Shown here piece after piece: positions 1,441-28,674 of a stretch of 31,495 bases of DNA. The stretch is from IMG/VR virus record IMGVR_UViG_2778261428_000002; one strand, written 5' to 3'. Under the pieces are notes generated by a model. It had not been told where the DNA came from, searched no databases, and saw nothing but the letters and a program-made list of their open reading frames with translations. The stretch is from a virus (lineage: Duplodnaviria; Heunggongvirae; Uroviricota; Caudoviricetes). Position 1 is the first letter of the stretch. Every line of letters starts with the position of its first letter. A program made the translations under genes and the position numbers.

Positions 1441-1818
1441 CTAATGGCAATTTTCATTGTTTTCCCCATGCCGTTCGGCGTTCAGGTGTTGCCACTGCGC
1501 TGCAATCCGCTTCATCACCGCATTCCCCTCCGGGATCACCTCCTGCGGCTCTTTCATCAACATTATCCGCCCCCGGATAACGATCAGCGCCTGTTCCAGC
1601 AGGTCATAGTCCAGATAACAGAGGTCGGGAATATCCAGTTGCCACACGTAGCCATTCCATGCAGAAAGCAGTACCTGCGCAGCCGCGCGTCCGCCGGTGG
1701 TTTCTGTGAGAGCAACGTCGACAAGGGTATTGACAGCAAGGCGGTATTCCTCTGGCGTTACGCAAAGTCTTTGTCGTTGGGTTTCTTGCGTTGCCAGAGC
1801 CTTAAATATTTCGTTCAT
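1441..1818 (-). CDS. Hypothetical protein, 125 aa, last gene of the early operon downstream of the primase
   Basis: Complete ORF on the same strand 10 bp downstream of the primase stop. No motif I can recognise. Confidence 0.55.
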   Translation of the reverse strand: MNEIFKALATQETQRQRLCVTPEEYRLAVNTLVDVALTETTGGRAAAQVLLSAWNGYVWQLDIPDLCYLDYDLLEQALIVIRGRIMLMKEPQEVIPEGNAVMKRIAAQWQHLNAERHGENNENCH

Positions 1819-1827
1819 AACATTTCC

Positions 1828-4482: not shown

Positions 4483-4570
4483 TGCCAGTACCTTTATTCA
4501 GGTAATACTTACCCGTCGCATAGACACGTTGTTTATGCGTTGTGGTTGTGAGTCTTTTATTTACTGAGCG

Positions 4571-4801
4571 TTACGCGATTTTCTGTTTTTGCAGAAATTG
4601 CCCGCGTGTGGATAGTGGTATGTGTATCTTAGGATTCGGGCAACCGCTCGGTACCACCGTTCCCATCACGGTTTCCATTGCGATAAATGAAAACGAACAG
4701 TTAACGTTTTTGCACTGGTAATAGAGCTTACGTACCAGCGGTGACATATATTCGCTGCTGCGAATTATCGCCTTACCGTCGCAGTGTGGGCATTTCATCA
4801 T
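4571..4801 (-). CDS. ogr: Ogr/Delta-family zinc-finger late transcription activator
   Basis: CPHCDGKA...YYQCKNVNCSFSF matches the Cys4 motif of P2 Ogr / P4 Delta. I moved the start to the ATG-ATG at 4801 (MMKCPHC), which has GGAGA 6 nt upstream; the ORF track start at 4819 has no RBS. Confidence 0.85.
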   Translation of the reverse strand: MMKCPHCDGKAIIRSSEYMSPLVRKLYYQCKNVNCSFSFIAMETVMGTVVPSGCPNPKIHIPLSTRGQFLQKQKIA

Positions 4802-5491: not shown

Positions 5492-6580
5492 ATGGCAAAT
5501 GTCGGCTTTTCTTTTGAGGGGGTGATGATTGAAAGAATTATTGCTCATCGAATCTTCCCAAGGTCTCCCGATAAGCAAATGGTTCCACCTAAGTTAAGTA
5601 ATCAGTTAATAACGTTAGAACAAGATGCTTTGGATGCACTACAGGTTCGTATAACAGAAGCCTTAGGTAATAAATCTCATGGCATTGAAATGTCTATCAC
5701 TGATACCGGTGATGATAGTTTTTTTGCACTGACAACGTCTGTACTACATGTTGAAGGCGAATCATTTATTAACGTATCTAAGCGATTGGCGCATAAGTTA
5801 ACAGAAGCTCAATATAGTGCGGGGAAGGTTTCCGGTGGTGTGTTAGTAATCATTACGGGAAAAATTGGTGAACAAGCCTGCCCATTCTTTGCTGTACTGC
5901 GTGCTGAAATGCAAAACGGATTTCGGACCAATGATACCCCAGAGAAAATAGCGATGGAGTATATTGCTGACTTATTACTTACACCAACTCAGCGGCTTTA
6001 TAAAATAGGAGTGTTGATTGAGTGTGAGTCAGGCCATGAATTGATTGATGGTCGTTGTGATACGCAATATTATCGTTCATTTTTATTTGATCACTTGATG
6101 ACATCGACGGAAACTAAAAATGCTGCGGGGTATTTTTACAGTGTTTTTCTTGGAATGGGGATCGAAAAATCCTCCAAGAAATTGACGCAGGATTTTTTTG
6201 AACATACTCGAAATTTCATTAATCAGGCTCCAGTTGATGAAGAAACTAAGTTTGATTTACACGAGTCATTACGTTCTGAACTGAGAAGTCAGAAAGCAAC
6301 TTTGAGTACCGCTTCGTTTGCTACGGAACATCTTCCTCAAGAATTACAGACGAGCTATCAGTCATTTATGGCTCAAAAAGGTTTTCCGCAGAATGCAGTG
6401 TCTAAAGATACTGATTATATTAAGAAAAAGCTTCGTCGTAGAAGTAAATTAGTGTTTACAAGCGATGTATGGATATCCATACCACCAGATCAAGTAAAAG
6501 AACTGGTACAGATTGAACAAACAGATGATGATGAGTCAACTACACTTAAAGTCAAAGGGCGGTTGAAAAGTCAAGAATGA
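5492..6580 (+). CDS. Hypothetical 362-aa protein, partner of the RSH-domain protein; function unknown
   Basis: AGGGAG RBS 8 nt upstream. AT-rich relative to the phage backbone. Stop overlaps the next start (ATGA). No catalytic motif recognised. A weak, memory-based resemblance to NA37/YejK nucleoid-associated proteins is unverified. Confidence 0.7.
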   Translation: MANVGFSFEGVMIERIIAHRIFPRSPDKQMVPPKLSNQLITLEQDALDALQVRITEALGNKSHGIEMSITDTGDDSFFALTTSVLHVEGESFINVSKRLAHKLTEAQYSAGKVSGGVLVIITGKIGEQACPFFAVLRAEMQNGFRTNDTPEKIAMEYIADLLLTPTQRLYKIGVLIECESGHELIDGRCDTQYYRSFLFDHLMTSTETKNAAGYFYSVFLGMGIEKSSKKLTQDFFEHTRNFINQAPVDEETKFDLHESLRSELRSQKATLSTASFATEHLPQELQTSYQSFMAQKGFPQNAVSKDTDYIKKKLRRRSKLVFTSDVWISIPPDQVKELVQIEQTDDDESTTLKVKGRLKSQE

Positions 6581-7578
6581 TGAGTATAGAGGATTTTAGA
6601 CGTTATCTGGTTGAAAACCATGCTGCTTATGAAGCATGGGGTAAACATATTGCGTCTGAAATCAATGCGGCTTTGATTGAACAACTTGGTGAAGGGGCCG
6701 CCCAGCTCTTCATCAAGGTACCACCCACTCCGAGAGTTAAAGGTATCGAGTCCGCATTAGGGAAGGTTGGTCGTAAAGGTTATAACAACCCTGTTCAGCA
6801 GATGACGGATCTCGTTGGCGTTCGTTTTGTCGTTTTACTTTCTGAAGATATTGAGACAATCTGTAAAATCATTCAGAATAATGAACAATGGATAGCTGTT
6901 GTTTCTAAAGATTATCAGGATGAAATAGAGGTAAACCCTAAACTATTTGATTATCAATCAAAGCATTTTGAAATAAGGCCAAAGATAAATAGCGTTATAT
7001 CGGGAGTTAATATTACAACTGATATGTGCTGTGAAGTACAAATTAGAACATTATTGCAGCATGCGTATGCAGAATTAGTTCATGATAGCGTTTATAAACC
7101 TGTTGGCCCAGTACCGAAAAAAGCGGAGCGCCAAATTGCGCGTAGTATGGCTTTGATGGAAACAACAGATGAATTATTTTGTAATACAATGCGGCTTTTA
7201 TGTGATACTAATAAACCAAGAAATGATTTTTTAAAGGAGTTAAAAGATTTTTATATAAATAAAATTGGGAGACAGTATTTAAATCAGGAAGATAAAATAA
7301 ATTATTGTTTTTTAGATGAGTATAGGTCGTTTATACAAGAAGATCTTTTGACTAATCTAATCGACCTTCTTGATAAGAAAAAATATATATCATATAAAAT
7401 CCAACAAAGGGCTACTGCCAATCTTTTTTTTGCGCAGCCAGTGGTCATTTTTACTTACTGGCTGGCAATAAATGAAGACAGTAATAAATTACAGCAAGAA
7501 TGGCCGTTACCTGGATATTTGAACGAATTGAGAATGATTTTAAGTGATGTTGGTGTAAGTAGCGGTATTGGATATTAA
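6577..7578 (+). CDS. RelA/SpoT-homologue (RSH) nucleotidyltransferase-domain protein, small alarmone synthetase / toxSAS-like
   Basis: 333 aa. Synthetase motifs in order: PRVKGIESALGKVGRKG, MTDLVGVRFVV (DxxGxR), DYQ...FDYQSKHFEI, CCEVQIRTLLQHAYAELVH (ExQxRT...H.aE). C-terminal ~140 aa is Lys-rich and very AT-rich. Stop converges on gene D with a 4-bp overlap. Confidence 0.75.
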   Translation: MMSIEDFRRYLVENHAAYEAWGKHIASEINAALIEQLGEGAAQLFIKVPPTPRVKGIESALGKVGRKGYNNPVQQMTDLVGVRFVVLLSEDIETICKIIQNNEQWIAVVSKDYQDEIEVNPKLFDYQSKHFEIRPKINSVISGVNITTDMCCEVQIRTLLQHAYAELVHDSVYKPVGPVPKKAERQIARSMALMETTDELFCNTMRLLCDTNKPRNDFLKELKDFYINKIGRQYLNQEDKINYCFLDEYRSFIQEDLLTNLIDLLDKKKYISYKIQQRATANLFFAQPVVIFTYWLAINEDSNKLQQEWPLPGYLNELRMILSDVGVSSGIGY

Positions 7579-12923: not shown

Positions 12924-14102
12924 TTACACGGTGGTGGCGATGGATTCAGCCAGATTGACCAGATAGCGGTCAGTGATGCGCTGGCGGAACATCAGGTTTT
13001 CCAGCGGCGGCACCGGGGTGTAGTCGTAGTCGATATACGCTTTACCCGCTTTCAGGATGTCCGGCGTGTTGGCGGCGGGATCGAACCATGCGGAACCATC
13101 GACGATGTAGCCGTTGCCTTTCAGTTCGCGGAATTTGGCGTTCACGCCTTCGATAATGTCGCGGAACAGAGAAGCGTGTTGCGGTTTATCTACCGCCCAG
13201 AAGTGGGCGTCGGCGATGGTATCCGCCAGCACCTGCGCGGTGCGGGTGTAGTTCTCAAAGGCAAACAGCGGATCGGTGCTGCAGGTGCGCGATCCCCAGA
13301 AGCGATAGCCGCCGTTGCAAATCAGCGTGGTGACGTCGTGGCTGTTGAGGTAATCCGAATCGGTGGCGGTGGACTGCAGATCCCAGAATACGCTGCGGGA
13401 AATGCCAGTCACGCCGTTGACGTCAACGTTGGACAGCGTTTTATGCCAGCCGATTTCTTCATCAATTTTTGCACGCAGGCCCACGGCATGGGCGGTGGCG
13501 TACAGCGTGCGTTCGGCAGCAGCCTGCGTATCAAAGCCGACAAAATCCGGCCAGATAATCATCGCCTCCCGTGCGCCGAGCTGATCGCGATACAGCACCA
13601 CCTCTTCTTTGGTCTGCGCGCCGAACGCCGACAGATAGCTGAAGGCGCGAAGCTGCTGTGAAATGCTGACCAGTTCGGTGACGACAGGCAGAGAATCCAG
13701 CCCCGGTACCGCCAGAATGCGCGGTTTTATTTTCAGTTTGGTTTGCGAGTCCAGCAGCGCCTTCATGCCGGTGTATTTCCCGGCTGGCGTGCTGCCGCCG
13801 ATGATATTGGCGGTGGTTTCGGCGGCGGAGTCGCCTTCGGCTACGCGCACGGCGACTACCACCGGCTGCGTCTGGTCGGCGATGGCATCCAGAGAGTGCG
13901 CCAGCGTACCGCTATCACCGGCTTTACCCAGCGCAGATCGCACGTCGGTTAACAGTACCGGGGTATCAAGGGGAAAGGTTTTTTCATCGGCGTCTGATCC
14001 GGTGCAGACGATGCCGATCACGGCGGTGGAGAGGGTACGGATTGGGCGCACGCCTTCATTGATTTCAATAACGCGCGCGCCGTGGTGGTAGTCGGTTGCC
14101 AT
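12924..14102 (-). CDS. FI: Contractile tail sheath protein (gpFI-like)
   Basis: Start moved to MATDYHHGARVIEINEG (GGAGG RBS 8 nt upstream). Strong similarity to P2 FI as I recall it (YTPVPPLENL, GWHKTLSNV). Confidence 0.9.
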   Translation of the reverse strand: MATDYHHGARVIEINEGVRPIRTLSTAVIGIVCTGSDADEKTFPLDTPVLLTDVRSALGKAGDSGTLAHSLDAIADQTQPVVVAVRVAEGDSAAETTANIIGGSTPAGKYTGMKALLDSQTKLKIKPRILAVPGLDSLPVVTELVSISQQLRAFSYLSAFGAQTKEEVVLYRDQLGAREAMIIWPDFVGFDTQAAAERTLYATAHAVGLRAKIDEEIGWHKTLSNVDVNGVTGISRSVFWDLQSTATDSDYLNSHDVTTLICNGGYRFWGSRTCSTDPLFAFENYTRTAQVLADTIADAHFWAVDKPQHASLFRDIIEGVNAKFRELKGNGYIVDGSAWFDPAANTPDILKAGKAYIDYDYTPVPPLENLMFRQRITDRYLVNLAESIATTV

Positions 14103-14173
14103 AGGGCGAGCCTCCATCAGGTCAATAAATGACGATGGTGGCACGATGGCGGGGGGATGTAAGATCGCTTCCA

Positions 14174-14196
14174 CTTGTAACCACAGGCACTACAAG
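14174..14196 (-). promoter_or_regulatory. Late-promoter dyad CTTGTAA-N10-TACAAG upstream of FI
   Basis: Near-perfect 23-bp inverted repeat, centre about 83 nt upstream of the FI start. Same motif occurs three more times. Confidence 0.6.
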
Positions 14197-14208
14197 CAGA
14201 AGCGGTTT

Positions 14209-14967
14209 TTAATTCAGGATAATCAGTTCTGATGTAGCGCTGGCTGGCTTTCCGCCTACGGTATAGCGAATCCCTACCGTTGAGAATGTCAGGCCGTGGA
14301 AGATATCGCGCATTTCCGGGATGTCGTTAACCGAGATAATCATCCGGCCCTGCATGGTGCGCGCCAGCTCTGCCATACGCTGGTACTGCTCAAGGCCAAA
14401 CGGTACGCCGTAGCCTTCGGTTTTCCAGTATGGCGGGTCGCAGTAGAACAGGGTATGCGGGCGGTCATAGCGGCGAATACAGTCGGCCCAGTCCAGATTT
14501 TCAATACAGACGCGCGCCAGCCGCAGATGGGCGGCGGATAAATCTTCCTCCATACGCAGCAGGTTCAGGCGTGGCGGTGAGGTGGTGGCGGTACCGAACG
14601 TGCGGCTTTCCACCTTGCCGCCGAACGCCAGCTTTTGCAGATAGTAGAAGCGCGCCGCGCGCTGGATGTCGGTCAGCGTTTCTTCCGGGGTGATCTGGAG
14701 CCAGCGGTACATTTCGCGGCTGACCAGCGACCATTTAAACTGGCGGACAAACTCTTCTAAATGGTGCTGGAGTACCCGGTAGAGGTTGGTAACGTCACCG
14801 TTGATATCATTCAGCACCTCGGCCTGAGCGGGGCGTTTCATAAAGAACAGCGCCGCCGCTCCGCAAAATGGCTCGACGTAACAGCGGTGTTCAGGAAACA
14901 GCGGCAGGATGTGTTTCGCCAGTCGGCGTTTGCCGCCGATCCACGGAATAACGGGTAACGTATTCAT
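14209..14967 (-). CDS. dam: DNA adenine methyltransferase (Dam-like, N6-adenine)
   Basis: 252 aa. SAM-binding FCGAAALFF and catalytic DPPY (YCDPPYWKTEGY). Sits between tail-fibre genes and FI. Confidence 0.85.
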   Translation of the reverse strand: MNTLPVIPWIGGKRRLAKHILPLFPEHRCYVEPFCGAAALFFMKRPAQAEVLNDINGDVTNLYRVLQHHLEEFVRQFKWSLVSREMYRWLQITPEETLTDIQRAARFYYLQKLAFGGKVESRTFGTATTSPPRLNLLRMEEDLSAAHLRLARVCIENLDWADCIRRYDRPHTLFYCDPPYWKTEGYGVPFGLEQYQRMAELARTMQGRMIISVNDIPEMRDIFHGLTFSTVGIRYTVGGKPASATSELIILN

Positions 14968-15431
14968 ATTGTCAATTTTCCAGACCGACTGCTGACCAAC
15001 GCATACAGCAGATTAGGCGACCAGCGCCAGCTATCGCGCAGGTGCAGAAATTCGGCGCAGAACTCGCTGCAAAACAGGCGTTCCTGTTTGCCCTGACTGA
15101 GTAACACAAAACCCATGGCGCCCAGCCAGTCGTAACCTTTATCGTCATGCTGACGAAAAAAGGTTTCCAGTGCCAGCGGATCGGCGTTGATCGGGAGTAA
15201 ATCCCATTTCTCAATCGGCAGCGGCATTCGTTTGCTGCGCACGCCTTTATCCCGTACCGATGATGAGTAACAGATAAACAGGCCATCCGGCTGGCGTTCG
15301 ACCAGTTCGCAGTGAGAGTAAGGGCCGCGCGTGACCTGTCGAGTCAGCCAGTCGGAGAGCCGGGCAAGGCTGAAAAAGCGTTCAGCCCGGCCACGGTAGA
15401 ACGCCGCGTAAACCTGACTCATGGTTGCCAT
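14964..15431 (-). CDS. Hypothetical Cys/His-containing protein co-transcribed with dam; possible permuted papain-like hydrolase
   Basis: 155 aa. Stop overlaps the dam start. YSHCE and FCSEFC motifs (His before Cys). Fold assignment is speculative. Confidence 0.55.
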   Translation of the reverse strand: MATMSQVYAAFYRGRAERFFSLARLSDWLTRQVTRGPYSHCELVERQPDGLFICYSSSVRDKGVRSKRMPLPIEKWDLLPINADPLALETFFRQHDDKGYDWLGAMGFVLLSQGKQERLFCSEFCAEFLHLRDSWRWSPNLLYALVSSRSGKLTI

Positions 15432-19496: not shown

Positions 19497-20095
19497 TACT
19501 GCGGTCCTCCGGTATTGCTACCCCCGCGCTCCACGCCTGTATGCGTATGGGTATGGACGGTGACGCCGTTAGAGGTAAAGCTGCCGCCGCTGTGGGTGTA
19601 AGCGCCTTTAAGCGTGCCGCCTTTTTTAACCGACAGCGTGGCGGTTTCCAGATGCTGAGTGCAGACGACGAGCGGTGTATCCAGCGTGACGCGGGTGCTG
19701 GCTTCGACCAGTGCGGTTTTGATGCCGGTCGCTTTTAACGCGCTGGAGCGCGGATCGTATTCAATCACCGCACCATCGGGGTAAACGCTATGGTGAACCT
19801 GTTCATCCAGCAGCGGGGCGGGGCTGGCGTCAGAGTAAATGGCCGGAAGCGCCACGGCGGTGGTTAACTCTCCGCTTAAACAGAGCAGTAACACCTGCTC
19901 GCCTGTTGATGGCCGCCACCACGTCCGGGCATCATCGGCGCGTAGCGTCAGCCATGGTATCCAGTTGGTGGTCAGTTCACCAGTGTGAATGCGTACTCGA
20001 TCGCCCTTCACCTCTTCAACGGTGCCGGTACGGATCAGGTTCTCTATGCGCCGGTGCAGTTCGGCGAGGTTGGCTGGGTGGTTTGCGTCGCTCAT
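19496..20095 (-). CDS. V: Baseplate central spike/assembly protein V (gpV-like)
   Basis: Start set at ATG MSDANHPANLAEL; the ORF track start at 20125 is a TTG. C-terminal region resembles P2 V as I recall it (RVTLDTP.VVCT, KGGT). Confidence 0.85.
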   Translation of the reverse strand: MSDANHPANLAELHRRIENLIRTGTVEEVKGDRVRIHTGELTTNWIPWLTLRADDARTWWRPSTGEQVLLLCLSGELTTAVALPAIYSDASPAPLLDEQVHHSVYPDGAVIEYDPRSSALKATGIKTALVEASTRVTLDTPLVVCTQHLETATLSVKKGGTLKGAYTHSGGSFTSNGVTVHTHTHTGVERGGSNTGGPQ

Positions 20096-20139
20096 GCCGG
20101 AATCATTGGTATTCTGGCATGACAATGGTAGCTTTAACG

Positions 20140-20162
20140 CTTGTATTGTGGATTTTTACAAG
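20140..20162 (-). promoter_or_regulatory. Late-promoter dyad CTTGTAT-N10-TACAAG upstream of V
   Basis: 23-bp inverted repeat between the moron stop (20166) and the V start. Spacing to V is shorter than at the other three sites. Confidence 0.55.
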
Positions 20163-20165
20163 CGG

Positions 20166-20621
20166 TTAAATCCAGTGGATTTCGGTAACTTCAGGGTTCG
20201 CACAGCCTGTTTTAAGAGACACAAAAACGGCATATTTATAACCCAATTGTTCTTTAAACGCCTGCAGCTTGAGGAGGTCTTTTTCTCTGCCATTTCTTTG
20301 GTTGTTGGTCGATTTTTTCAGTTCGAACGCAATCAGGTTTTCATCGGTTCCTCGGTGGTGAACGATAATATCCGGGATAACATCACGTTCGCTTGCATTT
20401 CCGTTAGGTTCAACTGCGTAAATTAATCTTTTAACTGCATCCCCATTTCTATTGTATTCACAGTCTACATCCCATTCCGGGAAGTTATTTTCCAGATATC
20501 TACCCAAGCGGTTGGCGATAGCCCGTTCACTATTATCTGTAATCAGCAAATGAGCATCGTTACGCAAAAGTTCATTGATAGCGGCTCGCGTTGATTCTTC
20601 AACAGTATGTTGATTAGGCAT
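20166..20621 (-). CDS. Moron: hypothetical 151-aa protein with possible PD-(D/E)xK nuclease-like motif
   Basis: AT-rich ORF between S and V (P2 orf30 position). AAGGA RBS. Residues VIPDIIVHH...IAFELKK give a D-x19-ExK pattern. Confidence 0.65.
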   Translation of the reverse strand: MPNQHTVEESTRAAINELLRNDAHLLITDNSERAIANRLGRYLENNFPEWDVDCEYNRNGDAVKRLIYAVEPNGNASERDVIPDIIVHHRGTDENLIAFELKKSTNNQRNGREKDLLKLQAFKEQLGYKYAVFVSLKTGCANPEVTEIHWI

Positions 20622-22992: not shown

Positions 22993-23378
22993 TTGCGTCC
23001 CCTTAAAAAGTCGAGCAATTGACCGGGGTTATCCAGTTGTCGGATGGCCCATAGCAGCGCCTTGACGGTCAGCGCCGATGAGAGCAGCGCCCCGATACCA
23101 GGGGAGACTTTTTCCATCAGATGCTGCGGCAGATATCCGGCGACCAGCGCGGTGAACAGGTCGGCGGTCAGCAGGCCGATCACAAACGCCACGCAGAAGA
23201 AAATGATGCGCAGGAACAGGCCGATCTCTTTTTGCGAAATCACCAGCAGCAGCGCGCCACACAATGCGCCTAGCACTACCGGAGCCTGTAGCGTCGGGAA
23301 CAGCGTGGCAATGGAGAATGCGCTTACGGAAGCGGCAACGACGGTGCCGGTTACGGGTTCGTTCATAGTCAGTCCCAC
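22989..23378 (-). CDS. Holin (gpY-like)
   Basis: 129 aa hydrophobic membrane protein immediately downstream of X. Confidence 0.65.
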   Translation of the reverse strand: MGLTMNEPVTGTVVAASVSAFSIATLFPTLQAPVVLGALCGALLLVISQKEIGLFLRIIFFCVAFVIGLLTADLFTALVAGYLPQHLMEKVSPGIGALLSSALTVKALLWAIRQLDNPGQLLDFLRGRK

Positions 23379-23572
23379 AGGTTGATTCGTTGACGCGTGG
23401 CGGCGGAAGCCTGTTCAGGTACGTTCACCGCCGTACCGTGCGGCAGGCGCAGCGGCAGTTCGCACAGGCGCGGGTTGTCGCGGTAAAGCCGTTCGACAAT
23501 CCCGGCAGTGCGCCCGAAGGTGCGCCAGCAGATCTGGTCGAGCGTTTCGTTTTGCAGGCTATAGACGATCAT
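23369..23572 (-). CDS. X: Tail protein X (gpX-like)
   Basis: Start moved to ATG MIVYSLQNETLDQICWRTFG, giving 67 aa. Resembles P2 gpX as I recall it. Confidence 0.8.
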   Translation of the reverse strand: MIVYSLQNETLDQICWRTFGRTAGIVERLYRDNPRLCELPLRLPHGTAVNVPEQASAATRQRINLWD

Positions 23573-23644
23573 GGCGTTTCCCACGCGGCGTCAGGTGATG
23601 CGGGGATGGTGGCACAGGGGCGGGAAGTGAAGGGAAGGCTTCCG

Positions 23645-23667
23645 CTTGTAACTGAGGGCAGTACAAG
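23645..23667 (-). promoter_or_regulatory. Late-promoter dyad CTTGTAA-N10-TACAAG upstream of X
   Basis: 23-bp inverted repeat, centre about 84 nt upstream of the X start, just downstream of the island's small minus-strand genes. Confidence 0.6.
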
Positions 23668-23685
23668 CGGGAGCGATTGGCGGGG

Positions 23686-24006
23686 TTATGCCTCGCCGGT
23701 GTCGGTGTTGATGATTTGCCGTTCTGCGGACTTCTGGATTTGGATCAGCGCCGGGATCAGCAGTGCACTGGCTAGCAGGCCGTGTCCTAACTGGCACAGG
23801 CTTTCCGGTGAGAACTCCAATACGTTGCTGTCGGCGAAGGATACGAAGGTTTTACCCAGAAAGTGCAGGCCGTGGCACAATCCGGCGCAGCACTCCTCGC
23901 TGCTGTTGGCCAGTTGCAGGGTGTCGTCTGCGTTGAGATTCGAAATATCCAGCTTGCGGATCACATCGGCCAGTTCGGAAGAAAGCAGGTTGGTTTCAGG
24001 CACCAT
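23686..24006 (-). CDS. Hypothetical 106-aa protein, second gene of a coupled pair
   Basis: ATG at 24006 with GGAGGTG RBS. Start overlaps the upstream gene's stop by 11 nt. Contains a Cys-rich stretch (EECCAGLCHGLH). Confidence 0.5.
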   Translation of the reverse strand: MVPETNLLSSELADVIRKLDISNLNADDTLQLANSSEECCAGLCHGLHFLGKTFVSFADSNVLEFSPESLCQLGHGLLASALLIPALIQIQKSAERQIINTDTGEA

Positions 24007-24202
24007 GGCGCACCTCCAGCGGCTTGCAGGAGACAAATACCAGCGGGAAACCCGCCAGCAGGTCGCGAGCCTCGATCTCTGTTGTTGCCAGTACGGACAC
24101 CAGACGCAATGGCTGGATCTCGCGCAGCAGGCGGTTGGAACGGGCGTTCAGGAAGGTGTAGAGCTTTGAATGTGCGCGTATGTTACTATTAGCGGTAGCC
24201 AT
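23996..24202 (-). CDS. Hypothetical 68-aa protein, first gene of a coupled pair
   Basis: ATG at 24202 with GAGG RBS. Divergent from the RHH/Doc operon. Confidence 0.5.
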   Translation of the reverse strand: MATANSNIRAHSKLYTFLNARSNRLLREIQPLRLVSVLATTEIEARDLLAGFPLVFVSCKPLEVRHGA

Positions 24203-24273
24203 AGCATTAGCCTCAATAATGTTGTGGTCAGAGGCCCGTTGGTGTTGGTAGCACCTGCGGGCTTCGTTGTTTT

Positions 24274-24293
24274 TGTATGACTGTTGTCATACA
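24274..24293. promoter_or_regulatory. Perfect 8-bp inverted repeat (TGTATGAC-tgtt-GTCATACA), candidate operator in a divergent promoter region
   Basis: Lies in the 134-bp gap between the 68-aa gene and the RHH gene. Followed by a possible sigma70 promoter TTGCTT-17-TATAGC. Confidence 0.5.
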
Positions 24294-24336
24294 CTTGCTT
24301 TACTAACTGTAGGAAAATATAGCAGGAGTATAGCAA

Positions 24337-24516
24337 GTGTCAACCATTTCTATTCAAGGCAAAGGCAGTAAGCAAATCGCGTTACGAGTAGATCCTGCTC
24401 TTGAGGCCGGAATTCAGCAGGCACTTAAAGCTGATGGTGATGCCTCTGTTTCCGCGTGGATTAAGCGAATTATCAGGAAAGAGCTTCAGTCACGAGGCAT
24501 TGAAACAAAAGATTAG
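24337..24516 (+). CDS. Ribbon-helix-helix (Arc/CopG-like) DNA-binding protein, GTG start
   Basis: 59 aa, not in the ORF track because it starts with GTG. AGGAG RBS 7 nt upstream. KQIALRVDPALEAGIQQALKADG...WIKRIIRKEL fits a strand-helix-helix pattern. Confidence 0.6.
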   Translation: MSTISIQGKGSKQIALRVDPALEAGIQQALKADGDASVSAWIKRIIRKELQSRGIETKD

Positions 24517-24562
24517 CAGATAGGTATATACTTTTAATAAAGAGTATTAGAGGTAAAAAATA

Positions 24563-24751
24563 ATGGCGAAGAATAGCAGTCCTGCCAGCCGATACGGTAT
24601 CAAGGTCGTAAAAAGAGACAGTATGAGTGGGCAGTTCGTACCCGTCGAAATGAAACTGGACGGCCCGGAAGGTGAGCGTGTGATTAAAAAGTCGGCAGAA
24701 CGTATTTATGCCAGACACAACAAAGTCATTAAGGCGCTGGCTAACCGATGA
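24563..24751 (+). CDS. Putative antitoxin partner of Doc (family not recognised)
   Basis: 62 aa with GAGGT RBS. Stop overlaps the doc start (ATGA). Confidence 0.55.
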   Translation: MAKNSSPASRYGIKVVKRDSMSGQFVPVEMKLDGPEGERVIKKSAERIYARHNKVIKALANR

Positions 24752-25125
24752 TTGATGCACATTTGGTGATTGGAATTCACGATTTTATTCTTGCTCATGA
24801 GCCGGGATTGGTTGGTTATCAGGATGCTGGCCGGGTCGAGGCAACACTGGCGCGGGTGGATAACCGTATTCTGTATGAGCAGATGAATGATATTTTCCAG
24901 ATCGCCGCATCTTATGCGGTTGCCATCGCCAGAGGGCACGTTTTTGCTGATGCCAACAAGCGAACGGCACTGGTGACGGCGTTGACATACCTTGATATGC
25001 AGGGTGTGAACCTCAAGCGAACACAAAAGCTGGAAGATATTATGGTGGATGTGGCTGAGGGAACGCTGAATCTGGATGATTTAGCCGATATTTTCTATAC
25101 CCTTAGTGATGTAAATGCTTCCTGA
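24748..25125 (+). CDS. doc: Doc (death-on-curing) / Fic-family toxin
   Basis: 125 aa. Fic/Doc active-site motif HVFADANKRT (HxFx(D/N)(A/G)NKR). Confidence 0.85.
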   Translation: MIDAHLVIGIHDFILAHEPGLVGYQDAGRVEATLARVDNRILYEQMNDIFQIAASYAVAIARGHVFADANKRTALVTALTYLDMQGVNLKRTQKLEDIMVDVAEGTLNLDDLADIFYTLSDVNAS

Positions 25126-25130
25126 CGTTA

Positions 25131-25155
25131 CAGCCCGACAGATCGGGCTGTTTTT
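25131..25155. terminator. Rho-independent terminator hairpin after doc
   Basis: CAGCCCGA-caga-TCGGGCTG followed by TTTTT. Lies between the convergent doc and 91-aa gene stops. Confidence 0.7.
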
Positions 25156-25157
25156 AA

Positions 25158-25394
25158 TTATGCCGCCTCAATACCCGCGCTGGTTAACATATAGTGGCCC
25201 CAGTGGGTTTTCTTCAGGTAACCGGCCAGTTCCATCTGCGTCACAATAAATTCAGCGTTAACCATTTCTATACCTGCGTAGTCGGCCAGATCGCTCAGCG
25301 GCCATGTGCTGCGAACGCCGACGCTAACTATGGTGTCTCTGATGCGGCGGGCGGTATCGGTCATTGGGCGGGTTCTGGCGGCCTGAATAGTCAT
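25158..25394 (-). CDS. Small hypothetical protein, possible winged-helix DNA-binding protein
   Basis: ORF track start (25433) is a GTG. I prefer the internal ATG (MTIQAAR) with AGGGGA RBS, giving about 78 aa. Fold call is a guess. Confidence 0.5.
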   Translation of the reverse strand: MTIQAARTRPMTDTARRIRDTIVSVGVRSTWPLSDLADYAGIEMVNAEFIVTQMELAGYLKKTHWGHYMLTSAGIEAA

Positions 25395-25509
25395 GGTATT
25401 TTCCCCTGTAGGTTCTTTCGTTGGGTCAGACACTAACTCTGGTGGGGAAGGGGCATCCAGCGTTCAGATGAGGCGATACGGTGATGCGCATCGCATATCC
25501 GTACTCTTT

Positions 25510-25977
25510 TTATACCAGAACAAACGTACTGCGCGGCTTGCCCAGAATATCCCGCACGGCGAAGCGGGCATCGCGCGCCAGATCGTCAGCGATGCTTTCC
25601 TTCTGTTCCGCCAGTTTGCTGCCGTGGGTGGTGGCATCAAAGTTACGATAGTGTTCCAACAGGTTCGCGTGCGTCAGGCTGTACACCGCGCGGCGGTAGC
25701 GGTGCTGGTTAACGCTTTCGCCGTCCAGCCGTTCGGTCGTGGTTTCCGCAATGTAAGTTGTGCCACGGTTTTCCTGTTCCAGCCGCCATTCCCGCAGGTC
25801 GTCGTTTACGCTGGCCAGCGCAATCAGCAGTGCCTCGCGCAGACGTTCGTTGGTAATGGTGCTGTCCAGCCGTTGGGTTGCACGCAGATGTTGCGTATCA
25901 ATATCGGGAAAGAAAGGGTGGTTGCTGATAACCAACCCCGGCAGACTGGCGGCGGGGGCAACCTGAATAAAGCTCAT
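25510..25977 (-). CDS. L: Head completion/stabilisation protein L (gpL-like)
   Basis: Start moved to ATG MSFIQVAPAASLPG (GGGAGA RBS). Conserved order after M. Confidence 0.8.
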   Translation of the reverse strand: MSFIQVAPAASLPGLVISNHPFFPDIDTQHLRATQRLDSTITNERLREALLIALASVNDDLREWRLEQENRGTTYIAETTTERLDGESVNQHRYRRAVYSLTHANLLEHYRNFDATTHGSKLAEQKESIADDLARDARFAVRDILGKPRSTFVLV

Positions 25978-28651: not shown

Positions 28652-28674
28652 CTTGTAATCATCCGGGTTACAAG
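28652..28674. promoter_or_regulatory. Late-promoter dyad CTTGTAA-N10-TACAAG in the O/P divergent intergenic region
   Basis: Perfect 23-bp inverted repeat, centre about 84 nt from the O start and 72 nt from the P start. A degenerate half-site lies nearer P. Confidence 0.6.

What the first reader, a model, noticed from the sequence alone, without database searches (positions are those of the whole stretch)
23590..25500. Accessory island splits the head/tail late operon, with its own terminator and an extra late promoter
In P2 the genes L and X are adjacent in one operon. Here about 1.9 kb of small regulatory and toxin genes lies between them. A bidirectional terminator hairpin (25131-25155) ends the island, and a full late-promoter dyad (23645-23667) sits directly upstream of X. 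That would let X and the lysis genes still be expressed late despite the insertion. This marks the L/X junction as a cargo hotspot.
Basis: partly seen in the sequence, partly recalled or inferred. Interest (0 to 1): 0.45.

Follow-up and report, generated by a model that had tools for sequence, protein, structure and literature searches.

The report
Cargo island between two late operons
A rare P2-like E. coli prophage carries a 1.8 kb swappable block of toxin-antitoxin-type genes between head gene L and tail gene X, at a spot where this phage lineage, unlike P2, already has a late promoter in front of X; this is an ordinary kind of prophage cargo hotspot in a position not previously listed.

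Summary
L (25510-25977, minus) and X (23369-23572, minus) are 1,937 bp apart. The dyad at 23645-23667 and the hairpin at 25130-25151 are both real.

The interpretation needs correcting in three ways.

1. The dyad CTTGTA-N11-TACAAG occurs exactly four times in the window: in front of the sheath gene, V, X and O/P. It is therefore a genuine late-promoter operator. However, near relatives with no island (Edwardsiella and two viral contigs) have the same dyad in a 109-112 bp L-X gap. The promoter belongs to the lineage and was not added to rescue X. P2 and 58 of 62 other P2-like loci have L abutting X with no gap.

2. The hairpin has a U-tract on the plus strand only. It ends the RHH-antitoxin-Doc operon, not the island, and it is not bidirectional.

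3. The island (23681-25509) is a true hotspot: there are seven cargo layouts plus the empty site. All islands keep one module next to X: an RHH gene, an Icd-like gene and a 106-aa gene. A structured antisense RNA resembling SymR covers the Icd-like start codon.

This is a new position for a known kind of feature, of moderate interest.

The parts
25510..25977 (-). Head completion gene L, the last core gene of the O-N-M-L head operon
   Evidence: Pfam Phage_GPL, E 2.7e-45. RefSeq annotates it as head completion/stabilization protein.
23681..25509 (.). The accessory island: 1,829 bp that replace about 1 nt in island-free relatives
   Evidence: Alignment of the window to the empty site of L005 shows homology stopping at the L stop codon and resuming at 23680. 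GC content is 0.507, and 0.461 for the RHH-Doc part, against 0.58 in the flanks. No repeats flank the island.
25158..25394 (-). 78-aa ORF in the same orientation as L; function unknown
   Evidence: It matches phrog_331, function unknown, E 6e-7. It is present at 88-100% identity in all island variants except the Erwinia one.
25130..25156 (+). Intrinsic terminator of the plus-strand RHH/62-aa/Doc operon, lying between convergent stop codons
   Evidence: The stem has 9 bp, 6 of them G-C, and is followed by TTTTT on the plus strand. Folding energy is -15.7 kcal/mol. On the minus strand the stem is followed by AACGUCAGG, with no U-tract.
24748..25125 (+). Doc (death-on-curing) toxin gene
   Evidence: Pfam Fic/DOC, E 2.6e-10. 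NCBIfam TIGR01550 DOC_P1 scores 88.5 bits against a cut-off of 38.65. It also matches phrog_577, Doc-like toxin. The motif HVFADANKR can be read in the translation.
24563..24751 (+). 62-aa ORF whose stop overlaps the doc start (ATGA); called a putative antitoxin from its position only
   Evidence: ORF list. It has no Pfam or NCBIfam match and matches only phrog_11529, function unknown. It travels with doc in L002, L007, L024 and L110-113.
24337..24516 (+). 59-aa ribbon-helix-helix protein (YlcI/YnfO-like), divergent from the Icd-like gene; inferred to repress the module
   Evidence: NCBIfam YlcI_YnfO_N, E 4e-4, below its cut-off. PHROG Arc-like repressor, E 6e-4. A divergent 54-61 aa ORF accompanies the Icd-like gene in most contexts examined (not L026/L027 or L019/L020). 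The palindromes around the promoter differ between loci whose divergent small gene differs.
24316..24343 (-). Sigma-70 promoter-like site pointing into the Icd-like gene: TTGACA, 16 nt, TG-TATATT
   Evidence: It matches 11 of 12 consensus positions and has an extended -10. A TTGACA stands upstream of the Icd-like gene in 10 of the 11 contexts compared (not L026).
24197..24275 (+). Candidate cis-antisense small RNA resembling SymR; it covers the ribosome-binding site and start codon of the Icd-like gene
   Evidence: The Rfam symR model scores 33.8 bits, E 5e-4, against a gathering score of 61. An independent hit of 33.7 bits lies at the same place in the Erwinia island. The fold is -39.3 kcal/mol with z -5.75. 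In nine sequences from seven genera the 5' stem is invariant, including 3 G-U pairs. Seven pairs of the 3' stem show compensatory changes. The sequence TGnTACTAT (TGATACCAT in one locus), an extended -10, sits upstream in all but the L009 element.
23996..24202 (-). 68-aa Icd-like protein (Icd is a cell-division inhibitor)
   Evidence: NCBIfam phage_ICD_like scores 24.1 bits against a cut-off of 25, E 2.8e-5. It matches phrog_20855, E 1.5e-45. NCBI names homologues at 79-88% identity as Icd-like.
23686..24006 (-). 106-aa helical protein of unknown function; its start overlaps the end of the Icd-like gene by 11 nt
   Evidence: It matches phrog_19484, E 2.6e-53. The family is small, 22 clusters, with invariant motifs GLCH and LCQLGH. 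The AlphaFold model has pLDDT 86 and three helices. No PDB fold match reaches E<0.001.
23638..23674 (-). Operator of the late promoter PX. The core dyad is CTTGTA-N11-TACAAG at 23645-23667, and the arms extend to 13 bp
   Evidence: It is one of only four exact copies in the window. It is centred 84 nt upstream of the X start codon, as at O (84) and the sheath gene (83). The arms are conserved and the spacer varies across 12 relatives, with or without the island.
23369..23572 (-). Tail gene X, the first gene of the X-holin-endolysin-spanin-R-S operon
   Evidence: Pfam Phage_tail_X, E 8e-17. RefSeq annotation.
14174..14196 (-). Late promoter dyad upstream of the tail sheath gene (PF); the closest paralogue of PX
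   Evidence: The PX/PF alignment score is 24, against shuffles of 3.0 +/- 1.8 with a maximum of 15.
20140..20162 (-). Late promoter dyad upstream of baseplate gene V (PV)
28652..28674 (.). A single late promoter dyad shared by the divergent O and P genes
   Evidence: P2 likewise has one annotated activator site between pO and pP.
4571..4801 (-). Ogr/Delta-like zinc-finger late activator gene
   Evidence: RefSeq annotation of the near-identical GMF054 prophage. The CX2CX22CX4C motif is present in the translation.

Best explanation
**What it is.** The window is a P2-like prophage of a rare enterobacterial lineage. In this lineage the P2 'O operon' is split into two late units.
- O-N-M-L is driven by the shared O/P operator.
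- X-holins-endolysin-spanins-R-S is driven by its own Ogr-type late promoter, PX.

The few bases between the L stop codon and the PX operator form an inter-operon gap. Foreign genes can sit there without breaking late expression, and the gap has become a cargo hotspot.

**The three units of the island in this window.**
1. Next to X is a mobile, doubly controlled module. An RHH protein is transcribed divergently from a strong sigma-70 promoter that drives an Icd-like gene and an overlapping 106-aa gene. A SymR-like antisense RNA covers the Icd-like ribosome-binding site and start codon.
2. A 62-aa/Doc toxin-antitoxin pair follows, ended by a one-way terminator.
3. A 78-aa ORF lies next to L, in the same orientation as L.

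**How it probably works.**
- In the lysogen, the island genes would run from their own sigma-70 signals.
- The plus-strand terminator would stop Doc transcripts from running antisense into the 78-aa ORF and L.
- After induction, Ogr would fire PO, PX, PV and PF. X and the lysis genes would then not depend on read-through across 1.8 kb that is partly antisense.

**Shown here.** The anatomy, the operator family, the empty site, the cargo turnover and the RNA structure with covariation.

**Inferred.** Promoter activity, terminator activity, repression by the RHH protein, toxicity of the Icd-like protein, and the antitoxin role of the 62-aa ORF.
For: **PX is a late-promoter operator.**
- There are four exact copies of CTTGTA-N11-TACAAG, each at the start of a late operon; 0.67 are expected.
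- An Ogr-like activator gene with the CX2CX22CX4C motif is present.
- P2 late promoters use TGT-N12-ACA and depend on Ogr (PMC3931495).

**PX exists without the island.**
- The same PX sequence is present in the island-free relatives L005, L013 (Edwardsiella ictaluri) and L029.
- The island boundaries map to the L stop codon and to 13 nt before the dyad.
- P2 has L overlapping X.
- 58 of 62 other P2-like loci have the same arrangement as P2.

**The junction is a hotspot.**
- Seven cargo layouts are found between conserved flanks.
- GC content is lower in the island, and there are no flanking repeats.

**The module is mobile.** It also occurs in:
- the tail-fibre/sheath hotspot of Yersinia and Photorhabdus P2-like elements, among many toxin-antitoxin pairs;
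- chromosomal sites in Kosakonia and Leminorella;
- E. coli integrase/primase elements, at the head of the replication operon, in a diverged form in which only the Icd-like gene, the RHH family and the RNA hairpin are recognisable.

**Other support.**
- Antisense RNA.
- Doc.
- Terminator.
Against: - No transcript data exist; every promoter and terminator is a sequence prediction.
- The dyad spacing is N13 between TGT and ACA, not the N12 of P2.
- The PV dyad lies only 56 nt from its start codon, so the promoter geometry is not uniform.
- The order of events is unresolved. The most divergent member (Erwinia) has an island and the Edwardsiella phage does not, so the empty site could be a secondary loss.
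- PX resembles PF over about 100 nt. This fits a copied promoter and could mean that PX arrived together with cargo.
- No terminator was found on the minus strand between L and X, so read-through from PO may also reach X.
- The strong Icd-like promoter points towards X and the lysis genes. Nothing I found clearly stops it. A terminator-like hairpin at 24060..24038 does not look conserved in the Erwinia variant, by eye only.
Confidence: 0.75

Rival explanations
1. The promoter came in with the cargo. On this view, a block made of accessory genes plus a copy of the sheath promoter PF was recombined into an ancestral P2-type L/X overlap. The island-free Edwardsiella phages later lost the cargo but kept the promoter. 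That would restore the first reader's idea that the promoter is linked to the insertion.
For: - PX and PF are the most similar pair of late promoter regions. Their alignment score is 24, against a shuffle maximum of 15, and the similarity extends into the spacer and the -10 area.
- In Yersinia and Photorhabdus P2-like elements the same Icd-like/106-aa module sits in the hotspot upstream of the sheath gene or beside the tail fibre genes.
- The most divergent lineage member (Erwinia) already has both the island and PX.
Against: - Three island-free loci have a clean junction of about 1 nt between the L stop codon and the PX homology. Leaving the promoter exactly intact would need a precise deletion.
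- The Erwinia module is far more diverged than its flanks (106-aa protein 33% and Icd-like 58%, against L 83% and X 78%). This points to replacement rather than inheritance.
- PX/PF similarity could instead reflect shared constraints on the two promoters.
Confidence: 0.2
2. The long inverted repeat at PX (13-bp arms) acts mainly as an RNA hairpin that ends or attenuates transcripts coming from L and the island. On this view it is a terminator or processing site rather than, or as well as, an activator-binding site.
For: - As RNA the element folds at -20.6 kcal/mol with z -5.6.
- PX and PF both lie downstream of a co-oriented operon, and both have arms of 13-14 bp. The O/P and V sites have arms of only 8 bp.
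Against: - The stem is followed by CUUCCCUUCACUU, which is not a U-tract.
- The same core dyad lies between the divergent O and P genes, where no upstream transcript needs ending.
- Across relatives the arms are conserved while the spacer varies freely. That is the pattern expected of a protein-binding dyad.
Confidence: 0.15
3. The part of the island nearest X (RHH, Icd-like and 106-aa genes) is not cargo. On this view it is a working part of the phage's own development, for example lysis timing or host division arrest. It would feed transcription from its sigma-70 promoter into X and the lysis genes.
For: - The module is kept next to X, in the same orientation, in every island-bearing relative, while the rest of the island turns over.
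- Its promoter points into X, and no clear terminator lies between them.
Against: - Close relatives do without the module entirely.
- The same module occurs alone in bacterial chromosomes and in other hotspots. That behaviour fits a selfish, toxin-antitoxin-like unit.
Confidence: 0.1

Closest known systems
P2 late operon organisation: four Ogr-dependent promoters PP, PO, PV and PF, with the O operon running O-N-M-L-X-Y-K-...-R-S
   Same: - The gene order is the same.
- An Ogr-type zinc-finger activator is encoded.
- Hyphenated dyad operators are used.
- One operator is shared by the divergent O and P genes (PMC3931495).
   Different: - There is a fifth operator in front of X. L and X are separated by a gap (109-112 bp when empty), whereas they overlap in P2.
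- The dyad spacing is TGT-N13-ACA rather than N12.
Known cargo hotspots of P2-like phages: old/tin between A and Q, Z/fun between tail fibre and sheath genes, and the D-to-repressor site
   Same: - Content varies between conserved core genes.
- The cargo is rich in toxin-antitoxin and defence genes.
- The site lies at an operon boundary.
- The cargo has its own expression signals (bioRxiv 10.1101/2024.10.15.618418; PMC9122126; PMC13586616).
- The window also has cargo upstream of PF and beside the repressor gene, and a further cargo site upstream of PV that is not one of the three named hotspots.
   Different: - The position differs. The L/X junction is not among the hotspots those papers describe.
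- PMC13586616 reports a hotspot 'downstream of GpL' but equates it with the tail-gene hotspot.
- The L/X site exists only because this lineage has a gap and a promoter there.
Morons of lambdoid phages: a gene with its own promoter and terminator inserted between late genes (recalled from memory, not checked here)
   Same: It is an autonomous transcription unit with a terminator, inserted in a late gene cluster, and it differs from its flanks in composition.
   Different: It is several stacked units rather than one. It sits between two promoters rather than inside one transcript.
Phd/Doc toxin-antitoxin of phage P1
   Same: The Doc toxin family and its catalytic motif are present, and a small upstream gene overlaps the toxin start.
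   Different: The 62-aa partner has no detectable Phd/YefM similarity. The location is a prophage late region, not a plasmid-prophage.
SymE/SymR type I toxin-antitoxin of E. coli (PMC1891008)
   Same: - A small cis-antisense RNA of about 77 nt has two hairpins, and its 5' end lies 3 nt inside the target ORF.
- It matches the Rfam symR model at E 5e-4, and independently in an Erwinia homologue.
- The loop motif GUGUU..GCAC is shared.
   Different: - The score is far below Rfam's gathering threshold (33.8 against 61).
- The target is an Icd-like protein, not the AbrB-fold SymE.
- No conserved LexA box was seen (checked by eye only).
immI region of phages P1 and P7: c4 antisense RNA, icd, ant (recalled from memory, not checked here)
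   Same: An Icd-family gene has its translation start targeted by an antisense RNA, and a downstream gene overlaps its end.
   Different: - The RNA is cis-encoded on the opposite strand rather than processed from the same transcript.
- There is no Rfam C4 match even at E<=10.
- The 106-aa downstream protein gave no Pfam or NCBIfam match of any kind; it was not compared with P1 Ant directly.

Membership tests
Ogr/Delta-dependent P2-type late promoter | A hyphenated dyad, TGT-N12-ACA, upstream of the promoter | tested here: inconclusive
   A perfect dyad is present, but as TGT-N13-ACA (CTTGTA-N11-TACAAG). The consensus is quoted from PMC3931495.
Ogr/Delta-dependent P2-type late promoter | The same operator recurs at the starts of the other late operons of the same genome | tested here: met
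   There are four exact copies only, upstream of the sheath gene, V, X and O/P. 0.67 are expected, and 0 of 100 shuffles reach 4.
Ogr/Delta-dependent P2-type late promoter | The genome encodes an Ogr-family CX2CX22CX4C zinc-finger activator | tested here: met
   The gene lies at window 4571-4801 (minus). The motif can be read in the translation, and RefSeq names it Ogr/Delta-like.
Ogr/Delta-dependent P2-type late promoter | Transcription starts about 55 nt downstream of the dyad centre and needs the activator | not testable with these tools
   This needs 5' end mapping or reporter fusions.
Prophage cargo hotspot (moron site) | Different gene content between the same conserved flanking genes in related genomes | tested here: met
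   Seven layouts are found between L and X.
Prophage cargo hotspot (moron site) | An empty site exists in a close relative | tested here: met
   L005, L013 and L029 have a 109-112 bp L-X gap, with L 86-87% and X 88% identical to the window.
Prophage cargo hotspot (moron site) | The cargo has its own transcription signals and a foreign composition | tested here: met
   A sigma-70-like promoter and a plus-strand terminator are present, as consensus matches only. GC content is 0.46-0.51 against 0.58 in the flanks.
Bidirectional intrinsic terminator | A G+C-rich hairpin with a U-tract on both strands, meaning an A-tract upstream and a T-tract downstream | tested here: not met
   The hairpin is present. 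TTTTT follows the stem on the plus strand only. On the minus strand the stem is followed by AACGUCAGG.
Doc toxin (Fic/Doc family, TIGR01550) | The domain match is above the curated cut-off, and the HxFx(D/N)(A/G)NKR motif is present | tested here: met
   TIGR01550 scores 88.5 bits against 38.65. Pfam Fic scores 41.5 against 24. HVFADANKR is in the translation.
Phd/YefM antitoxin | Sequence membership of the upstream partner gene | tested here: not met
   The 62-aa ORF has no Pfam or NCBIfam match. Only its position and co-occurrence with doc support an antitoxin role.
SymR RNA (Rfam RF01809) | Reaches the family's gathering score | tested here: not met
   The score is 33.8 bits against 61, and 33.7 bits in L014.
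SymR RNA (Rfam RF01809) | A cis-antisense RNA over the start codon of its target, with a conserved two-hairpin fold | tested here: met
   The fold has z -5.75. The invariant 5' stem has 3 G-U pairs, and 7 pairs of the 3' stem show compensatory changes.
SymR RNA (Rfam RF01809) | The target gene is symE (AbrB-fold toxin) | tested here: not met
   The target's best match is to the Icd-like family, and it has no Pfam hit.
Icd-like cell-division inhibitor (NCBIfam NF033153) | Score above the curated cut-off | tested here: inconclusive
   The score is 24.1 bits against a cut-off of 25, E 2.8e-5. NCBI names homologues at 79-88% identity as Icd-like.

The most novel reading that the evidence does not exclude
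The conserved trio (RHH gene, SymR-like antisense RNA plus Icd-like gene, and 106-aa gene) may be an undescribed mobile toxin module under double control.
- An RHH repressor with variant-specific operators would control transcription.
- A SymR-family antisense RNA would block translation.

It recurs at the edge of toxin-antitoxin pile-ups in at least two different P2-like hotspots. A diverged version (Icd-like gene, RHH family and RNA hairpin, with an unrelated 106-aa gene) heads the replication operon of integrase/primase elements in E. coli. This would extend the SymR RNA family to a second, unrelated class of target genes.

In the L/X island its strong promoter points into PX, X and the lysis genes. 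Release of the module might therefore feed lysis gene expression independently of Ogr.
Probability: 0.3. Interest if true: 0.55.

Novelty: new variant of a known kind. Interest (0 to 1): 0.38.

Why it matters
- **A rule for finding hotspots.** In this prophage the three internal late operators (PX, PV, PF) each have accessory genes immediately upstream of them, as far as the late region was examined. This suggests a simple rule: in P2-like phages, cargo collects in the gap just before a late promoter. The rule could guide automated hotspot and defence-gene mining. Current surveys name the A/Q, tail-fibre/sheath and D/repressor sites but not L/X.
- **Operon structure is not fixed.** The four-operon late plan of P2 does not hold across the family. 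One lineage has a fifth late promoter that appears related to PF.
- **A candidate new RNA-controlled module.** The SymR-like RNA opposite Icd-like genes is a well-supported candidate regulatory RNA that could be tested directly. It links prophage cargo islands with integrase/primase elements in E. coli.

None of this changes how prophage cargo or late gene control is understood.

Tried and rejected
**Searches that found nothing**
- Megablast of the island against 50,697 phage records gave no match.
- tblastn of the 106-aa and 78-aa proteins against the same records gave no match. No sequenced phage isolate in that collection carries the island.
- The Rfam gathering scan of the whole window gave no hit. 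No C4/c4-type RNA was found even at E<=10, so homology to P1 immI or the P4 CI RNA is not supported.
- PADLOC gave no hit for the RHH, Icd-like, 106-aa or 78-aa proteins.
- Two pattern searches failed through my own errors: a variable-gap pattern and a wrong loop length.

**Ideas considered and dropped**
- *Fold of the 106-aa protein.* The model is good (pLDDT 86), but no PDB match reaches E<0.001, so no fold-based function is claimed.
- *Relation to P4 ORF106.* P4's ORF106 is annotated DUF5375 and o106 gave no Pfam match at all, so the equal length is treated as coincidence; no direct comparison was run.
- *The 106-aa gene of the E. coli integrase/primase elements.* It shows no sequence similarity to the window's 106-aa protein. 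Only the Icd-like gene, the RHH family and the RNA hairpin are shared.
- *Internal terminator-like hairpin in the Icd-like gene (24060..24038).* I considered it as an attenuator coupling translation to read-through. By eye, the Erwinia sequence shows no equivalent stem, so I dropped it.
- *LexA box.* A LexA-like CTGT-N8-ATAG overlaps the -10 of the Icd-like promoter. By eye it is absent from the Erwinia variant, so I dropped it too.
- *Site-specific insertion.* No direct or inverted repeats of 8 nt or more flank the island, so nothing points to site-specific insertion or transposition.

**Low yield**
- The genome-contig scan with the L alignment returned only two loci. The lineage is rare and the sample of relatives is small.

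Full report
**What the window is.** The island region, window 23300-25700, is 100% identical to a prophage of E. coli GMF054. Only 4 of 5,426 complete E. coli genomes carry this prophage type. Its RefSeq annotation shows a P2-like layout: integrase, a toprim replication protein, an Ogr/Delta-like zinc finger, a repressor-like HTH gene, then tail, baseplate, lysis and head genes, all late genes on the minus strand. The nearest sequenced phage isolates are only about 65% identical over the head genes, and the island itself has no match in 50,697 phage records. The window is not identical to GMF054 everywhere: the region after the repressor gene differs.

**Checking the observation.**
- L is a Pfam Phage_GPL match and ends at 25510. 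X is a Phage_tail_X match and starts at 23572. They are 1,937 bp apart.
- In P2 the L stop overlaps the X start. In phiCTX a 65-aa ORF fills the space with no gap.
- The interval holds six ORFs:
  - a 78-aa ORF in the same orientation as L;
  - a Doc toxin (TIGR01550, 88.5 bits against a cut-off of 38.65);
  - a 62-aa ORF overlapping the doc start;
  - a 59-aa RHH protein resembling YlcI/YnfO;
  - a 68-aa Icd-like protein (24.1 bits against a cut-off of 25);
  - an overlapping 106-aa protein of unknown function.

**The dyad is a genuine late-promoter operator.**
- CTTGTA-N11-TACAAG occurs exactly four times in 31.5 kb, with no further sites at 1-2 mismatches. 0.67 are expected by chance, and 0 of 100 shuffles reach four.
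- The four sites lie upstream of the sheath gene, upstream of V, upstream of X, and once between the divergent O and P genes. P2 likewise has a single annotated activator site between pO and pP.
- The dyad centre lies 84, 83 and 84 nt from the start codons of X, the sheath gene and O.
- The prophage encodes an Ogr-like protein with the CX2CX22CX4C motif.
- P2 late promoters are described as TGT-N12-ACA and Ogr-dependent (PMC3931495). Here the spacing is N13.

**The promoter is not a response to the insertion.**
- Three loci from the same lineage have no island: L005 and L029 from IMG/VR, and L013 from Edwardsiella ictaluri ATCC 33202. L is 86-87% and X is 88% identical to the window.
- In these loci L and X are 109-112 bp apart, and that gap contains the identical dyad and the same downstream sequence.
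- Aligning the empty site to the window places the island at 23681-25509. That is 1,829 bp between the L stop codon and a point 13 nt before the dyad arms, replacing about one base.
- All 12 lineage members examined keep PX. The arms are conserved and the spacer varies. The Erwinia variant has one arm mismatch.
- In a survey of 80 IMG/VR loci that carry an X gene, L was found upstream in 62. Of these, 58 have the P2 arrangement (stop overlapping start). The only locus with an intergenic gap of this size is the lineage's own empty site.
- The lineage therefore has a fifth late promoter compared with P2, and the cargo sits in the gap between two late operons.
- Which came first is open. PX and PF are clearly the most similar pair of promoter regions, with an alignment score of 24 against a shuffle mean of 3.0 and maximum of 15. 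PX may therefore be a copy of PF.

**The terminator.**
- The hairpin has a 9-bp stem (-15.7 kcal/mol) followed by U5 on the plus strand.
- It lies in the 32 nt between the doc stop codon and the stop codon of the convergent 78-aa ORF.
- On the minus strand it is followed by AACGUCAGG.
- It is a one-way terminator for the plus-strand RHH/62-aa/Doc transcripts. It does not end the island.
- I found no convincing minus-strand terminator between L and X. The PX inverted repeat itself folds strongly as RNA (-20.6 kcal/mol, z -5.6) but lacks a U-tract.

**The hotspot.** Between the same L and X flanks I found eight states:

| State | Content between L and the conserved module | Loci |
|---|---|---|
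| 1 | 78-aa ORF, 62-aa/Doc | window, GMF054, L110, L111 |
| 2 | As state 1, with a different RHH gene and an altered Icd-like gene | L002, L113 |
| 3 | 78-aa ORF, 223-aa unknown | L004, L112, L114 |
| 4 | 78-aa and 68-aa ORFs, RelE/HTH, 177-aa unknown | E. coli L725 |
| 5 | 78-aa and 68-aa ORFs, RelE/HTH, Doc | L007, Serratia symbiotica |
| 6 | A decayed RelE/HTH version | Salmonella L021 |
| 7 | Rpn (YhgA-like) nuclease | Erwinia L006, L014 |
| 8 | Empty site | L005, L013, L029 |

The RHH-Doc part has GC 0.46 against 0.58 in the flanks, and no repeats flank the island.

Published surveys of P2-like hotspots name the A/Q (old/tin), tail-fibre/sheath (Z/fun) and tail/repressor sites (bioRxiv 10.1101/2024.10.15.618418). 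A 2026 study reports a hotspot 'downstream of GpL' but equates it with the tail-gene hotspot (PMC13586616). I found no description of the L/X junction itself.

**The conserved module next to X.**
- Every island keeps the RHH gene, the Icd-like gene and the 106-aa gene adjacent to X.
- A near-consensus sigma-70 promoter (TTGACA, 16 nt, TG-TATATT) points into the Icd-like gene. A TTGACA stands upstream of the gene in 10 of the 11 contexts compared. The palindromes around it differ between loci whose divergent small gene differs, as expected for operators of a repressor (the repressor role is inferred).
- On the opposite strand, 24197 to about 24275 matches Rfam symR: 33.8 bits, E 5e-4, against a gathering score of 61. 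An independent 33.7-bit hit lies at the same place in the diverged Erwinia island.
- The RNA folds into two hairpins at -39.3 kcal/mol, z -5.75.
- In nine distinct sequences from seven genera the 5' stem is invariant and contains three G-U pairs. These would be mismatches on the other strand. Its loop is complementary to the Shine-Dalgarno sequence. Seven pairs of the 3' stem show compensatory changes.
- An extended -10 (TGnTACTAT; TGATACCAT in one locus) precedes the predicted 5' end in all but the E. coli integrase/primase element L009.
- The RNA begins 3 nt inside the ORF, as the SymR model alignment implies. SymR is a cis-encoded antisense RNA to symE (PMC1891008). Here the target is an Icd-like gene, not symE.

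**Where else the module occurs.**
- It lies in the tail-fibre/sheath hotspot of Yersinia P2-like prophages and beside the tail fibre genes of a Photorhabdus P2-like element. There it sits among VapC, HigB, RelE, YafQ, PemK and Rpn genes.
- It occurs at chromosomal sites in Kosakonia, next to SIR2-type or other cargo, and on its own in Leminorella.
- A diverged version heads the replication operon of integrase/DUF927-primase elements in E. coli. There a 44-nt stretch of the RNA's 3' hairpin is 93-95% identical, while the proteins are not detectably similar by BLAST.
- This behaviour fits a selfish, toxin-antitoxin-like unit. Toxicity was not tested.
- The 106-aa protein models as three helices (pLDDT 86) with conserved Cys/His motifs, but has no informative fold match.

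**Most likely mechanism.**
- Shown: the anatomy, the operator family, the empty site, the cargo turnover, and the RNA structure with covariation.
- Inferred, in the lysogen: the island runs from its own sigma-70 signals. Doc is neutralised by the 62-aa partner. The Icd-like gene is held off by the RHH protein and the antisense RNA. The plus-strand terminator protects the 78-aa ORF and L from antisense transcription.
- Inferred, after induction: Ogr fires PO, PX, PV and PF, so X and the lysis genes do not depend on transcription crossing the island.
- Open: whether PO transcripts read through, and whether the strong Icd-like promoter leaks into X and the lysis genes.

**Verdict.** The finding is real and mostly well read. 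However, the 'extra promoter' is a lineage trait present with or without cargo, and the terminator is neither bidirectional nor at the island's end. This is a new position for a familiar kind of prophage cargo hotspot. Two modest new points come with it: a fifth Ogr-type late promoter that appears related to PF, and a SymR-like antisense RNA paired with Icd-like genes.

Noticed in passing
window 24197-24275 (+); also L014 8873-8944 (-), L009 about 3971-4050: A conserved two-hairpin antisense RNA resembling SymR lies opposite the start of Icd-like genes. It was found in prophage islands, in chromosomal sites and in E. coli integrase/primase elements. Its 3' stem shows compensatory changes across seven genera. 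A 44-nt stretch of it is 93-95% identical in about 20 E. coli genomes whose flanking proteins are otherwise dissimilar.
   Followed up: yes
window 20166-20621 (-): The 151-aa ORF between tail gene S and the PV dyad matches the PADLOC defence protein PD-Lambda-3_A (E 1.3e-38). Relatives carry HicA/HicB (L002, L024) or an AbiTii-type abortive-infection gene (L003, L021) at the same spot. This is a second hotspot immediately upstream of a late operator.
   Followed up: partly
window 5492-7578 (+): Downstream of the repressor-like HTH gene the window carries an NA37 nucleoid-associated-like protein and a RelA/SpoT-domain protein (PADLOC PDC-S33, E 1e-13). The otherwise near-identical GMF054 prophage has three different genes there (DUF6037, nucleoid-associated, hypothetical). 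This is a third variable site, and it shows that the window is not from GMF054 itself.
   Followed up: partly
window 14209-15431 (-): A Dam-type adenine methylase (Pfam MethyltransfD12) and a 155-aa ORF sit between the tail fibre genes and the PF dyad, in the position equivalent to Z/fun in P2. All three internal late operators (PX, PV, PF) therefore have accessory genes directly upstream.
   Followed up: no
window 23572-23700 and 14102-14230 (-): The PX and PF promoter regions are similar over about 100 nt beyond the dyad, sharing GGAAGC, GTGCCACCATC and ACCTGA. Their inverted-repeat arms are 13-14 bp long, against 8 bp at PV and PO/PP. This suggests that one promoter was copied from the other.
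   Followed up: partly
window 20095-20162 (-): The PV dyad centre is only 56 nt from the annotated V start codon, against 83-84 nt at PX, PF and PO. If transcription starts about 55 nt downstream of the dyad centre, as annotated for P2, the V mRNA would have almost no leader. Either the geometry differs at PV or the V start is misplaced.
   Followed up: no
window 24270-24345; L021, L028, L017 upstream of their Icd-like genes: The palindromes around the Icd-like promoter differ between variants. Examples are ACACTTGCT...AGCAAGTGT and TGTATGAC-N4-GTCATACA here, TGTAATTACA in Salmonella, GGTAATTACC in Yersinia and GGTATATACC in Photorhabdus. They differ between loci whose divergent small gene also differs (RHH identities were computed for L021 and related islands only), much like immunity specificities.
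   Followed up: partly
L032 (IMGVR_UViG_3300011232_000058) 1582-4704, and 17 other loci: In 18 of 80 viral contigs that carry an X gene, no L gene lies within 4.5 kb upstream. In L032, the only one of these examined, X is preceded by a 729-aa ORF and a 160-aa ORF that were not identified by any search, instead of an L gene.
   Followed up: no
alignment A2 (106-aa family), window 23686-24006: The 106-aa protein family has two invariant motifs rich in Cys and His: GLCH at residues 42-45, followed by a nearly invariant GLHFLGK, and LCQLGH at 70-75. They lie on the two long helices, which hints at metal binding.
   Followed up: partly
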